Source of the DNA: a virus
Lineage: Duplodnaviria; Heunggongvirae; Uroviricota; Caudoviricetes
DNA length: 23,710 nucleotides
Reading direction: 5' to 3' (one strand)
Virus record (IMG/VR): IMGVR_UViG_2851949629_000009
Span: 1-23,710 of that record
Positions 9,001 to 12,000 of the stretch are shown here, piece by piece. The stretch's first letter is position 1. Each line of letters begins with the position of its first letter. A program made the position numbers.

Positions 9001-12000
9001 AGCCGGGGATTTTTTCTTTGTGATTCCATCCAATGCATACTTAAAAGCCCTGCTAATCGGACTGATGTCTGATGCCATTCCAAAAGCACACAATACCGAA
9101 GCAATAAATCTCCAGTCCGTTCTGCTTATCTTCGATTCATGACAGCCAATCATCTTTGCCAGACCGCGCTGGGTAATAGCTGACAGATTGATAAGTAAAT
9201 CTGTTTCTGCGCGATCAACGTCACGCTGTGATAGTTTGCTGTAACTTGTTCTTTCCATTTCTTACTATTTCCATAGGTAAATAATCACTAATACTCATCT
9301 TTCGATGAGTGCTTAATTAGTTACCGCGTTGTCGGCGGTGCAGATTGATAAAGAGCGGTGTTACTTATGCAGCCAGAAGGTTCTTTTTACTTATTTCAAG
9401 CATTTCGCTTGCTTGATATTTGCCACCAGAAATCTCTTCGATTTTTGAGGCGTATTTCGTTTTCCCAAAAAACTCAGTCTTAGGGAGGAAGCCGTTTTTG
9501 AGCCACTTATAGACAGCCCTTTCGCTAACTCCACAAGCCTTCGCAACTTCAGGTATGCCGACACCTTTAATCGGCTCATCAAGATTTTGCATAGGAATAT
9601 CCTTTTTCGTACTTTCAGTACGCATTATGATTGAACTGAAAGTTTTTGCAAGTGCTTTAGTATCGTACTCATGGTTCAGAATGAAAAAGTGCGCAAAGAA
9701 TTCGCCCAGCGGCTAGCGCAAGCCTGTAAAGAAGCTGGTCTTGATGAACATGGTAGGGGAATGGCTATAGCCCGTGCCCTTTCTCTTTCGTCCAAAGGCG
9801 TTAGCAAATGGTTTAATGCTGAGTCTTTACCGCGTCAGGAAAAAATGAATGCGCTTGCGAAATTTCTAAACGTTGATGTTGTTTGGCTTCAGCACGGCAC
9901 TTCGTTAAATGGAGCGAATGATGAAGATACTCTTTCATTTGTTGGCAAATTAAAAAAAGGGTTAGTGCGCGTGGTTGGTGAGGCAATTCTTGGTGTTGAT
10001 GGTGCCATCGAGATGACCGAAGAACGCGATGGGTGGCTCAAGATTTATAGCGATGATCCAGATGCCTTTGGTCTTCGTGTGAAAGGAGACAGCATGTGGC
10101 CCAGAATAAAATCAGGAGAATATGTACTCATTGAGCCTAACACCAAAGTATTCCCGGGTGATGAGGTGTTTGTCAGAACCATCGAAGGACACAACATGAT
10201 CAAGATTCTTGGCTATGACAGAGATGGAGAATACCAATTTACAAGCATCAACCAGGACCACAGACCAATAACGTTGCCTTATCATCAAGTAGCAAAGGTG
10301 GAGTATGTGGCTGGTATTCTGAAGCAATCTCGCCATCTGGATGACATCGAGGCAAGGGAGTGGCTGAGAAATTATTAATACCAATAGCATAGAGACGAAA
10401 ATGCGACAGGTTTTAGGTACAAATCATAACCCTATCCACAAACAACGTTGTAAATATACACATAAGACTATTGTAAAAAAAGCTCTATCCCAGTAAATGC
10501 GGTTGCAAAATGGGTTGATCGAGCATATATAAGGAGTATAGTTAGTGACCCAAGATGAAACGAATGAATATCTGAAAACCTTAGCATTGGTTCCAAGTGC
10601 AGAGGCCTCCGCAGAGGAGAAGCAGATATATAGCGTCAAAAAGGCTGTAATCGGTCTGATTGAATTTGTTACAACCAGTCTTGAAGAGCTTGGAATTGAA
10701 GGGTTGCATGAGTTAACAAACCCATCTCTTGACGAATTAGATGCAGAGCTAGAGAAACTTGACCAAAAAGCTGATGCAATCAATGAACTAAACTTAAAGC
10801 AAATCATCATATTTGCACAGATTTTAATCAAAAACATAAGAGAAAAGAATCCTGATTTGTGCTCTGAGGGATCAAAACTACTCAAGAGTGCTAAATCGGG
10901 TCTTTGACACTTACAGAGCGGAGGATAAACATGTCTAGAACTGAACATATCAAAGATATGCTTAAAAGTGCGGATCGAATCAATCAGATTATTGCTGAAA
11001 TGAAGCAGAGAAAAGCAGAAATGCTAGCATCAAAGCTTCCAATGGCAGCATAACCAAAAACACCCGCTTCGGCGGGTTTTCTTATTCCCCTAAAAAGATC
11101 AAACAACTCCACATTAGCTTTTTTGTGCCCACAGTTTTCTACCTAGCAGTTTTCTTTGCCTCCCGATCCACCATCTAAAAACACATAACCAATTGTATTT
11201 ATTGAAAAATAAATAGATACAACTTGCTAAACCACGCAATTCTGATCCCTGCCGCATAACCTTCATCCGCAACATTTACAAAAATAAATTTCCTTATATA
11301 TCAAAATCATATTTCGTAGAGTTAATAAATCATAAACGATTCGTACCAATAGTTCTTGATAATATCGAACTACTGGTTCGTTATTATCGCCATCAGCAGG
11401 ACGTTGGAAGCCAAACGGAACAGATTGGCGGGCTCTTTAACTTCGATGGGGCGCTGACAAAGCGCAAACAGATACCAAACGAGATGGGTTTGGCGGTGTG
11501 GTGAAGGGTTCATGGACGGGAATATGTCGCACGTAAAGCGGCGAGGCCTGCGGGACTATTGCCGAATTGAAGTAGGCCGAAACAGGTCGAAATGGGTCTC
11601 CCACCTACCTGTAAGCGTCAACGGAGCACCGTATTGACGCTTATTTATTAGTGAGTACTACGTTCCATGGCAGGAGTTCGTCAACTCGGTTGGAAGGCCA
11701 TTCCGGCAGTACGCTCAGGATATGGCGCAGATACGCTTCCGGATCGATACCATTCAACCGGCAGGTGCCGATCAGCCCGTACAACAGTGCACCACGCTCG
11801 CCGCCGTGATCGCTACCGAAGAACACGTAATTTTTCTTTCCGAGACAGACTGCACGAAGCGCTCTTTCCGCTGTGTTATTGTCCGCCTCCGCCAGACCGT
11901 CATCACAGAAGTTGCACAACGCAACCCAGTGCTTCCTGATATACCGGAACGCATCTCTCAGACGGCATTTTTTCGATAACGTGTGTTCTTTCTCCTGCAT

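What the first reader, a model, noticed from the sequence alone, without database searches (positions are those of the whole stretch)
10379..11084. AT-rich two-gene moron in the rex position between cI and oL: candidate superinfection-exclusion or defence cassette
Directly downstream of cI on the same strand, and ended by a strong terminator, sit a 120-aa acidic helical protein (GTG start, AAGGAG SD) and a 40-aa protein (GGAGG SD). The segment is visibly more AT-rich than the surrounding phage genes, suggesting horizontal acquisition. In lambda this slot holds rexA/rexB, and in other lambdoid phages it is a known hotspot for exclusion or anti-phage cargo expressed in the lysogen. Neither protein resembles RexA/RexB or any family I recognise. 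A TTGCAA-N17-TATATA promoter-like element at 10503-10531 lies just upstream.
Basis: partly seen in the sequence, partly recalled or inferred. Interest (0 to 1): 0.7.

Follow-up and report, generated by a model that had tools for sequence, protein, structure and literature searches.

The report
Uncharacterised two-gene cassette in rex slot
Just after the repressor gene of a defective lambda-like prophage sits a small, AT-rich, self-contained two-gene cassette that recurs at this spot in many enterobacterial prophages, matches no known protein family, and is a plausible but untested candidate for a new phage-exclusion system.

Summary
Window 10374-11148 is a discrete mosaic segment between the cI stop and the pL/oL-nutL region of a cryptic lambdoid prophage of E. 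coli 214-4. It carries a promoter-like element, ORF-A (10545-10907, 120 aa, GTG start), ORF-B (10931-11053, 40 aa) and an intrinsic terminator. Its GC content is 38.2%, lower than every other 775-bp window of the prophage.

It is one member of a small family (30 cluster representatives among 1.84 billion proteins). ORF-A is always followed by a 30-42 aa basic amphipathic helix ending in Lys-Ala-Ala, then a terminator. In 50 of 51 loci with upstream sequence, the nearest upstream same-strand ORF of at least 90 aa is an S24 repressor, and many unrelated repressor types are represented. A sister cassette follows a near-lambda cI by 66 nt, where lambda has rexAB. The same cI as the window also occurs with that sister cassette.

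No Pfam, NCBIfam, PADLOC or PDB relative exists, and only an unknown-function PHROG matches. The AlphaFold model is a generic helical bundle without transmembrane segments.

"Moron in the rex slot" is supported. "Defence" rests only on position. My best guess is a lysogen-expressed, cytoplasmic, binding-based exclusion or abortive-infection pair with a short-lived small partner. This mechanism is untested.

The parts
10374..11148 (+). Whole mosaic cassette (the exchanged segment)
   Evidence: Phages L046 and L057 carry the same cI (97.5% DNA identity up to window 10373) and the same pL region (94% from 11149) but a different cassette in between. GC is 38.2%, lower than all 614 other 775-bp windows of the prophage.
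10503..10531 (+). Conserved sigma-70-like promoter element TTGCAA-N17-TATATA, abutting the SD sequence
   Evidence: TTGNAA/TTGATA, 16-17 nt, (T/C)ATATA is present in all 15 clade-1 upstream regions compared. These include a Salmonella locus with no repressor upstream. The function is inferred, not shown. The predicted start near 10538 would leave a 7-nt leader without the SD sequence.
10531..10536 (+). Shine-Dalgarno sequence AAGGAG of ORF-A
   Evidence: Lies 8 nt before the GTG. It is part of the block TATATAAGGAGTATAGTTAGTG, which is near-invariant across the six loci aligned.
10545..10907 (+). ORF-A: 120-aa acidic (pI 4.6) cytoplasmic all-helical protein of an uncharacterised family
   Evidence: 21 homologues and 30 cluster representatives at E<=1e-3 of 1.84e9. 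Motif G-x3-L-x2-L-T-N-P-S-L-D-E-L and N-L-K-Q. AlphaFold2 gives 5 helices, pLDDT 72.5. No transmembrane segment. No Pfam, NCBIfam, PADLOC or PDB hit.
10931..11053 (+). ORF-B: 40-aa basic (pI 9.8) amphipathic helix ending in ...PMAA
   Evidence: A 30-42 aa ORF with its own SD sequence follows every intact ORF-A homologue examined. All 23 unique versions end in Ala, and 22 of 23 have Lys at position -3. Hydrophobic moment is 0.63, reached by 1.65% of shuffles. The exact protein occurs on 446 contigs against 435 for ORF-A.
11062..11087 (+). Rho-independent terminator closing the cassette
   Evidence: 6-bp GC stem, UUCG loop, U-tract. A GC hairpin plus T-run follows ORF-B in nearly all related loci listed.
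9671..10378 (+). cI repressor (HTH + S24), upstream neighbour and likely source of read-through transcription
   Evidence: Pfam HTH_3 and Peptidase_S24. No terminator-like site lies between 10378 and 10545. 41 of 42 distinct upstream neighbours of family members are S24 repressors.
11300..11465 (+). pL/oL region and nutL (boxA 11432-11440, boxB hairpin 11451-11465): downstream border of the slot
   Evidence: Operator-like palindrome at 11358-11388 and repeats shared with the oR region. boxA/boxB were read from the sequence; recognising them as nut elements rests on my own knowledge. This DNA is common, found in 679 E. coli records.

Best explanation
The segment is a self-contained, horizontally exchanged two-gene moron in the slot that rexAB occupies in lambda, between cI and pL/oL. 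Its layout is promoter-like element, ORF-A, ORF-B, terminator.

**Shown**
- ORF-A is a cytoplasmic, acidic, all-helical protein with no catalytic-looking conserved residues.
- ORF-B is a 40-aa basic amphipathic helix whose C-terminus is conserved family-wide as Lys-Ala-Ala.
- The pair always travels together, and in 50 of 51 loci it sits behind an S24 prophage repressor, whatever the repressor type.

**Inferred**
- It is transcribed in the lysogen by read-through from the cI promoter. It probably also has its own promoter, since it occurs where no repressor lies upstream.
- ORF-A and ORF-B form a complex, with the helix docking on the bundle.
- ORF-B is short-lived, because its C-terminus resembles the ClpX degrons of ssrA (...LAA) and MuA (...RRKKAI).

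**Most likely function (inference from position only)**
- An intracellular, binding-based (non-enzymatic) exclusion or abortive-infection module that protects the lysogen from other phages.
- The labile ORF-B acts as the control element of ORF-A, which is toxin-antitoxin-like logic.

My confidence in the anatomy is about 0.9. In a defence role it is about 0.4. In the labile-partner mechanism it is about 0.2. The single confidence value given (0.4) refers to the defence/exclusion function.
For: - **Borders and composition:**
- **Rarity and mobility:** the cassette is in 4 of 5426 E. coli genomes, while the flanking pL DNA is in 679 records.
- **Taxonomic spread:** relatives occur in Serratia, Pectobacterium, Edwardsiella, Pantoea, Photorhabdus, Raoultella, Salmonella, a Klebsiella phage and an Aeromonas phage.
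- **Invariable A+B+terminator architecture:**
- **Repressor neighbour:** 41 of 42 distinct upstream neighbours carry Peptidase_S24. Many pairs are only 14-25% identical, so many immunity types are involved.
- **Direct evidence for the rex slot:** a sister cassette lies 66 nt after a near-lambda cI (L049, L050, L053). The same cI as the window occurs with the sister cassette.
- **Autonomy:** the cassette also occurs beside a bacteriocin operon and beside int-dinI.
- **Promoter and SD block:** conserved.
- **Cytoplasmic location and amphipathic ORF-B:**
- **C-terminal K-A-A:** conserved in 23 distinct ORF-B sequences that otherwise diverge strongly.
- **ClpX degron sequences:** taken from PMC12723719.
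- **Hotspot precedent:** rexAB and bstA are both abortive-infection systems downstream of cI (PMC8585504).
Against: - No experiment and no homology links either protein to defence. PADLOC gave only a 14.8-bit AbiEi match.
- The model is only moderately confident (pLDDT 72.5, pTM 0.57).
- The ORF-A/ORF-B complex and ORF-B instability are unproven.
- The window's own ORF-B ends in MAA. It is the only version that lacks the Lys.
- The predicted start of the conserved promoter (near 10538) would remove ORF-A's SD sequence, so the promoter reading and the SD reading of the same block are in tension.
- The host prophage is defective. It is IS-disrupted and lacks structural genes, so selection for defence of this particular copy is uncertain.
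Confidence: 0.4

Rival explanations
1. The pair modulates the prophage's own switch, affecting maintenance or induction. It would act on the RecA / S24-repressor / ClpXP axis rather than on foreign phages.
For: - The pair is almost always glued to an S24 autocleaving repressor, regardless of that repressor's DNA-binding domain.
- One non-repressor context has a dinI gene next to the cassette (AsXd-1). The other has a dinI fragment about 3.3 kb upstream (S. houtenae).
- ORF-B's C-terminus resembles a ClpX degron.
- From my own knowledge, not checked here: RexA has been reported to influence the lysogenic-to-lytic transition, and RexB to inhibit ClpP-dependent degradation of lambda O and of antitoxins.
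Against: - The position is equally explained by the slot being a general cargo hotspot.
- The cassette is exchanged independently of the immunity type and also occurs without any repressor.
- No DNA-binding domain was detected.
- The dinI association rests on two loci.
Confidence: 0.2
2. It is a lysogenic-conversion cargo that changes host physiology (stress tolerance, biofilm, virulence regulation) by binding a host regulator. This would be comparable in layout to tomB-hha, an acidic helical protein followed by a small basic helical one.
For: - Gene order, sizes and charges resemble tomB-hha.
- It has moron architecture with its own signals.
Against: - There is no sequence relationship to TomB: hhalign probability is 0.08%.
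- ORF-B (40 aa, one helix) is much smaller than Hha (72 aa, from my own knowledge).
- No Pfam hit to the Hha or YbaJ families.
Confidence: 0.15
3. It is an addiction-type toxin-antitoxin pair that stabilises the prophage, with a stable ORF-A toxin and a labile ORF-B antidote, and has no role against other phages.
For: - It is a compact two-gene operon that always stays together.
- The two proteins have opposite charges.
- The small partner has a degron-like C-terminus.
Against: - ORF-A resembles no known toxin fold or motif. No Fic or HEPN motif is visible by eye, and there is no Pfam or PADLOC hit.
- Neither protein has an autoregulatory DNA-binding domain.
- ORF-A is acidic and first in the operon, which is the usual antitoxin position, so the roles would be inverted.
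Confidence: 0.12
4. It is a counter-defence (anti-restriction or anti-immune) pair that helps the phage, not the host.
For: Small acidic helical proteins are common among phage inhibitors of host defences (general knowledge). The family is confined to phages and prophages.
Against: It sits on the lysogen-expressed side of the switch, behind cI and before pL, whereas known anti-defence genes of lambdoid phages such as ral lie in the pL early operon (ral is at about 15175-15375 in this window, mapped). The net charge of -9 is modest for a DNA mimic.
Confidence: 0.08
5. The ORFs are chance reading frames in AT-rich spacer DNA.
For: There are no database annotations beyond "hypothetical protein".
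Against: Both ORFs are conserved in length, frame, SD sequence and sequence motifs, across genera and down to 28% identity for ORF-A. The antisense 174-aa ORF is not conserved.
Confidence: 0.02

Closest known systems
Lambda rexA-rexB
   Same: - Same slot: directly after cI, same strand, before pL/oL, closed by a terminator.
- Also a two-gene unit.
- Presumably expressed in the lysogen.
- A sister cassette sits 66 nt after a near-lambda cI, where lambda has rexAB.
   Different: - No sequence similarity to any Pfam family, including Rex proteins.
- The proteins are far smaller (120 and 40 aa).
- Neither has a transmembrane segment, whereas RexB is reported to be a membrane ion channel (PMC8585504).
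BstA-aba of Salmonella prophage BTP1
   Same: It lies downstream of the prophage repressor in lambdoid/P22-like prophages of many Gram-negative genera, has a native terminator, and is found behind varied repressors (PMC8585504).
   Different: BstA is a single large protein with a DNA-based self-immunity element. Here there are two small proteins with no detected DNA-binding domain. No homology test against BstA itself was possible beyond the Pfam and PADLOC scans.
Phage morons in general (independent promoter-gene-terminator units, "The moron comes of age", PMC3594210, listed)
   Same: It has a promoter-like element, its own terminator, deviant base composition, presence/absence polymorphism between otherwise near-identical phages, and occurs at several typical cargo sites.
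   Different: "Moron" describes architecture, not function. Promoter activity is not shown.
Type II toxin-antitoxin operons
   Same: It is a compact bicistronic operon with one acidic and one basic product. The small partner has a protease-tag-like C-terminus.
   Different: There is no known toxin or antitoxin domain and no DNA-binding antitoxin domain. The putatively labile partner is the second, basic, 40-aa product.
TomB-Hha (YmoB-YmoA)
   Different: hhalign probability is 0.08%. The fold match is generic. ORF-B is about half the size of Hha (from my own knowledge).

Membership tests
Moron (autonomous phage cargo unit) | Own transcription terminator | tested here: met
   GC hairpin plus U-tract at 11062-11087. 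An equivalent terminator follows ORF-B in nearly all related loci listed.
Moron (autonomous phage cargo unit) | Own promoter | tested here: inconclusive
   TTGNAA-N16/17-TATATA is conserved in all 15 clade-1 upstream regions compared. The cassette also occurs without an upstream repressor. However, the predicted start would remove ORF-A's SD sequence, and no transcript data exist.
Moron (autonomous phage cargo unit) | Base composition different from the surrounding phage genome | tested here: met
   38.2% against 46.9 +/- 3.4% GC. It is the lowest of 615 windows.
Moron (autonomous phage cargo unit) | Present or absent between otherwise closely related phages | tested here: met
   Same cI and pL flanks with a different cassette in L046 and L057. 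Cassette in 4 E. coli genomes against 679 records with the flank.
Moron (autonomous phage cargo unit) | Expressed from the repressed prophage | not testable with these tools
   Needs RNA-seq or 5'-RACE of a lysogen.
RexAB | Homology to RexA and RexB | tested here: not met
   No Pfam, NCBIfam or PADLOC match for either protein.
RexAB | Membrane-spanning effector (RexB) | tested here: not met
   The maximum Kyte-Doolittle 19-aa window is 1.17 for ORF-A and -0.07 for ORF-B.
RexAB | Location directly downstream of cI, before pL | tested here: met
Type II toxin-antitoxin | Recognisable toxin or antitoxin domain | tested here: not met
   Pfam, NCBIfam and PADLOC negative for the window proteins; Pfam negative on 42 family members.
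Type II toxin-antitoxin | One partner toxic alone and neutralised by the other; labile antidote | not testable with these tools
   Only a degron-like K-A-A C-terminus is seen.
TomB/YbaJ-Hha | Sequence-profile relationship of ORF-A to TomB | tested here: not met
   hhalign of the 42-sequence profile against E. coli TomB gives probability 0.08%. The TomB sequence was recalled from memory and confirmed as a close YmoB relative (E 2.3e-50 to PDB 2mn2).
Known anti-phage defence systems (PADLOC-DB 2.0) | Match to any defence protein model | tested here: not met
   Only AbiEi at E 0.004, 14.8 bits, over a coiled stretch. The database dates from 2023, so later systems are not covered.

The most novel reading that the evidence does not exclude
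The pair is a previously undescribed, non-enzymatic two-protein abortive-infection or exclusion system that is hard-wired to the lysogenic state.
- ORF-A would be translated efficiently only from cI read-through transcripts that carry its SD sequence.
- The cassette's own promoter would start inside that SD sequence and yield mainly ORF-B.
- ORF-B would be a ClpXP-timed fuse (K-A-A degron). Its decay, or its competition for ClpX, when an incoming phage perturbs transcription or proteolysis, would release ORF-A to block the infection.
- A variant reading is that ORF-B is a ClpX decoy. From my own knowledge, this would parallel the reported anti-ClpP activity of RexB encoded at the same position.
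Probability: 0.12. Interest if true: 0.75.

Novelty: new variant of a known kind. Interest (0 to 1): 0.5.

Why it matters
The interval between cI and N of lambdoid phages is the classical home of rexAB and, more recently, bstA. Both are abortive-infection systems, and the mechanism of rexAB remains poorly understood (PMC8585504).

This analysis defines a third, unrelated occupant of that slot:
- It is a tiny, two-protein, cytoplasmic module.
- It is conserved as a unit in lambdoid prophages of at least ten genera of Enterobacterales and in an Aeromonas phage.
- It pairs with many immunity types.
- It matches no Pfam, NCBIfam, PADLOC or PDB family, and no paper in the held library mentions its accessions.

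If it is a defence system, it would be among the smallest known and would presumably act by binding rather than by catalysis. Its 775-bp size makes it very easy to test. The family-wide Lys-Ala-Ala C-terminus of the 40-aa partner gives a concrete, falsifiable hypothesis about proteolytic control. If it is instead a switch modulator or a host-physiology factor, it is still a widespread lysogen-expressed gene pair of unknown role.

Tried and rejected
1. **Homology to anything known.** Pfam, NCBIfam and PADLOC on the window proteins, and Pfam on 42 family members, gave nothing. The only hit was phrog_16322 (unknown function, E 1.7e-6). A PDB sequence-profile search gave nothing below E 0.07.
4. 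**Flanking inverted repeat.** The 11-nt perfect inverted repeat ATATATAAGGA / TCCTTATATAT (10525-10535 and 11291-11301) could have marked a mobile element. It is absent from other cassette loci except those that share the same pL region, so it is chance or belongs to pL.
5. **RNA element.** No Rfam match near threshold. The 5' region does not fold better than shuffles, z -0.09.
6. **Antisense 174-aa ORF (10424-10948).** Not conserved in relatives.
7. **LexA box.** None was found by eye upstream of ORF-A. TTGTAAATATACACAT lacks the CTG/CAG core.
8. **ORF-B homologue search.** The word-index search found only identical proteins. Divergent ORF-B sequences were recovered by reading the loci instead.
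9. **Literature.** No paper mentions the protein accessions or the PHROG. Degnan et al. 2007 is not held in the library.
10. **Contexts of distant metagenomic relatives.** The contigs are too short to say anything beyond the presence of ORF-B.
11. **Searches not run.** The genome contigs and metagenome scans were skipped as not worth their cost, given 70 viral loci.
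Full report
**Where the window comes from.**
The 23.7-kb window is identical to part of the chromosome of E. coli strain 214-4 (NZ_CP025840). There it forms a lambdoid prophage remnant between torT and torS. On the + strand the order is as follows:
- Q, the nin genes, P, O, cII and cro, all on the minus strand.
- cI (9671-10378, +), followed by the finding.
- A pL/oL-nutL region.
- An IS66-family element on the minus strand.
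- N (14194-14502, Pfam N_peptide).
- ral, recombination genes, xis and int.

The + strand therefore corresponds to leftward transcription in lambda. The finding lies exactly where lambda has rexA-rexB.

**Check of the observation.**
- ORF-A is 10545-10907. It has a GTG start 8 nt after AAGGAG, is 120 aa long and has pI 4.6.
- ORF-B is 10931-11053. It has an ATG 7 nt after GGAGG, is 40 aa long and has pI 9.8.
- The terminator is a 6-bp GC stem with a UUCG loop and a U-tract at 11062-11087.
- TTGCAA-N17-TATATA lies at 10503-10531.
- AT-richness is real and strong. The cassette is 38.2% GC against 46.9 +/- 3.4% for the rest of the prophage. None of 614 other 775-bp windows is as low.

**Borders of the cassette.**
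IMG/VR prophages L046 and L057 carry the same cI (97.5% DNA identity) and the same pL region (94%). Between these they hold a different, distantly related cassette.
- Homology to the window stops at 10373, five bases before the cI stop. It resumes at 11149.
- The exchanged unit is therefore 10374-11148.
- The joint lies inside the last codons of cI, so the two cI alleles differ only at their C-terminal residues (RNY versus KSS).

**Both ORFs are genes, and they are a pair.**
- ORF-A has 21 homologues in the 5.8-billion-protein collection. A profile search of 1.84 billion cluster representatives found only 30 at E<=1e-3, all of 59-135 aa. The family is real but small.
- The conserved core is G-x3-[LM]-x2-[LI]-[TV]-[ND]-P-S-[LI]-[DE]-x-L, a later N-[LIV]-K-Q-x-L-L motif, and often a Cys near the C-terminus.
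- I read the DNA of about 60 loci. They came from IMG/VR, NCBI genomes, metagenomes, Klebsiella phage vB_Kpn_RAH1 and Aeromonas phage AsXd-1.
- In every intact copy, ORF-A is followed after 11-69 nt by an SD sequence and a 30-42 aa ORF, and then in nearly every locus by a hairpin terminator.
- The 23 distinct ORF-B sequences diverge strongly. All are basic amphipathic helices (window copy: hydrophobic moment 0.63, reached by 1.65% of shuffles).
- All 23 end in Ala. Lys is at position -3 in 22 of 23, and Ala at -2 in 19 of 23. The tripeptides are KAA 18, KVA 3, KSA 1 and MAA 1, the last being the window copy.
- The exact ORF-A and ORF-B proteins are recorded on 435 and 446 contigs respectively, which is consistent with co-occurrence.
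- A 174-aa antisense ORF is not conserved and is spurious.

**Genomic context across the family.**
- In 50 of 51 loci with upstream sequence, the nearest same-strand upstream ORF of at least 90 aa is an S24 (LexA/cI-type) repressor. Of 42 distinct neighbour proteins, 41 hit Peptidase_S24.
- Many of these repressors are only 14-25% identical to each other. The cassette therefore combines freely with many immunity types.
- Three loci (L049, L050, L053) have a repressor that is almost lambda cI itself, by my recollection of the lambda sequence. Their sister cassette begins 66 nt after its stop. This is direct evidence for the rex position.
- Downstream come nutL/N-type genes.
- Two exceptions show that the unit can stand alone. 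In Salmonella houtenae it follows a colicin/pyocin-S gene and an adjacent 91-aa ORF. In Aeromonas phage AsXd-1 it lies between int-dinI and a tail-fibre gene.
- The window's cassette is in only 4 of 5426 complete E. coli genomes, and the sister cassette is full-length in 32. The adjacent pL DNA is in 679 records.

**Regulatory signals.**
- The block TATATAAGGAGTATAGTTAGTG is near-invariant across the six loci aligned. Their proteins are only 37-83% identical to the window's.
- Across the 15 clade-1 upstream regions compared, a -35-like TTGNAA or TTGATA lies 16-17 nt upstream of the TATATA, and the start codon is GTG or TTG in all but one.
- More distant clades also show good promoter-like hexamers shortly before ORF-A.
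- There is a tension here. If TATATA is the -10 element, transcription would start near 10538. That leaves a 7-nt leader lacking the SD sequence, so ORF-A would be translated well only from transcripts that begin upstream (cI read-through). ORF-B has its own SD sequence. This is inference and needs transcript mapping.
- No terminator-like site separates cI from ORF-A. No Rfam family or significant RNA fold is present.

**What the proteins look like.**
- There is no Pfam, NCBIfam or PADLOC family for either protein. The only hit is an unknown-function PHROG. Pfam on 42 family members and a PDB sequence-profile search were also negative.
- AlphaFold2 with 19- and 42-sequence alignments gives the same five-helix bundle at moderate confidence (pLDDT 72.5-72.8, pTM 0.54-0.57).
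- One of those was YmoB/TomB. I tested that lead by profile comparison and rejected it.
- Neither protein has a transmembrane segment.
- The conserved residues of ORF-A look structural (a helix-capping P-S-x-D/E-E-L turn) rather than catalytic. I conclude that ORF-A acts by binding.

**Most likely function and mechanism.**
- Shown: this is a mobile, AT-rich, two-gene, terminator-closed unit in the lysogen-expressed slot behind cI. It is conserved as a pair across genera.
- Inferred: it is expressed in lysogens, ORF-A and ORF-B form a complex, and ORF-B is labile.
- ORF-B's C-terminus combines basic residues with a terminal small-nonpolar pair. This resembles the ClpX degrons of ssrA (AANDENYALAA) and MuA (...RRKKAI) as quoted in PMC12723719.
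- Owen et al. (PMC8585504) describe the cI-N interval as a hotspot of mosaic diversity. They point out that rexAB and bstA, both abortive-infection systems, occupy it, perhaps because it is among the most highly transcribed prophage loci.
- On that prior, I rate a cytoplasmic exclusion or abortive-infection role as the single most likely function (about 0.4), with toxin-antitoxin-like control by a short-lived ORF-B (about 0.2).
- The rivals are a modulator of the prophage switch or SOS axis (0.2), host-physiology cargo (0.15), a pure addiction module (0.12), counter-defence (0.08) and non-genes (0.02).

**Comparison with what is known.**
- The cassette works from the same place and in the same layout as rexAB. 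It is not a member of that family, because the homology and membrane-effector criteria were tested and not met.
- It meets the structural definition of a moron. Promoter activity and lysogen expression remain unproven.
- It is not a recognisable toxin-antitoxin pair, a TomB-Hha pair, or a PADLOC-listed defence system.
- No paper in the held library mentions the accessions.

**Verdict.**
- The moron and rex-slot reading is supported. The defence reading is plausible but untested.
- I class it as a new variant of a known kind, meaning lysogen-expressed cargo in the cI-N hotspot built from an uncharacterised protein pair.
- Interest is moderate at 0.5. A specialist would not be astonished to find unknown cargo here. 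However, the pair is widespread, tiny and very easy to test, and the conserved K-A-A end gives a concrete mechanistic hypothesis.

Noticed in passing
window 11612-14100 (-), with nutL at 11432-11465 and N at 14194-14502: An IS66-family element (annotated as ISEc43-like: tnpA, tnpB and transposase 11641-13254) is inserted between nutL (boxA GCTCTTTAA, boxB GCGCTGACAAAGCGC) and an intact N gene (Pfam N_peptide, E 2.8e-38). This separates N from pL, so the prophage probably cannot antiterminate.
   Followed up: partly
window 370-2786 (+) and 2813-2965 (-): A second IS66-family element (ISEc23-like) lies beside tRNA-Thr and tRNA-Asn genes just beyond Q. In the record only fragments of tail and capsid genes follow. 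The prophage between torT and torS is a cryptic remnant without lysis or structural genes (annotation).
   Followed up: partly
window 10373/10374 (last codons of cI); L046, L056, L057, L059: The recombination joint between the two alternative cassettes falls inside the end of cI. Otherwise identical repressors therefore end in ...REWLRNY (window) or ...REWLKSS/KNS (sister-cassette phages).
   Followed up: yes
window 10526-10547 and the equivalent sites in related loci (for example L003 5975-6003): The putative -10 hexamer directly abuts the SD sequence, and the start codon is GTG or TTG in 14 of the 15 clade-1 upstream regions compared. A transcript from this promoter would have a leader of about 7 nt without an SD sequence. 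Distant clades also place a -10-like hexamer within about 20 nt of the ORF-A start. The reason for this conserved arrangement is unexplained.
   Followed up: partly
L006, L007, L008: 5607-5711 (+): Serratia prophages carry a 34-aa YoaK-family (PF28021) small ORF between the repressor and the cassette. The cassette is then preceded by about 290 nt of conserved non-coding DNA.
   Followed up: no
L010/L011 (Salmonella enterica subsp. houtenae) 2100-5497: The cassette sits next to a colicin/pyocin-S-type bacteriocin gene (Cloacin plus Pyocin_S domains) and an adjacent 91-aa ORF, possibly its immunity gene. A dinI fragment lies upstream and a 2764-aa polymorphic-toxin-like gene lies downstream. This is a non-prophage-immunity context.
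   Followed up: partly
L086 (Aeromonas phage AsXd-1) 3400-3500: The annotated ATG start of the ORF-A homologue may be too far downstream. An in-frame TTG at about 3447 is preceded by TTGAAA-N17-CATCAT-GAGAG, the same promoter/SD/non-ATG layout as in the enterobacterial clade.
   Followed up: no
window 8030-8929 (-), N-terminus of the O protein: The replication protein begins MTNTAKILNFCRG. This nearly matches the lambda O ClpX degron TNTAKILNFGR quoted in PMC12723719, so this phage's O protein is probably a ClpXP substrate like lambda O.
   Followed up: no
L087 (E. coli 13KWH46) 2950-3160, and the other 31 E. coli genomes with the full sister cassette: In the one RefSeq record examined, only ORF-A of the sister cassette is annotated. 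The 33-aa ORF-B (MKTMSTLHKDAMTLRSLINEILARSSAHTKKAA) is not called. The other records were not checked for this.
   Followed up: partly
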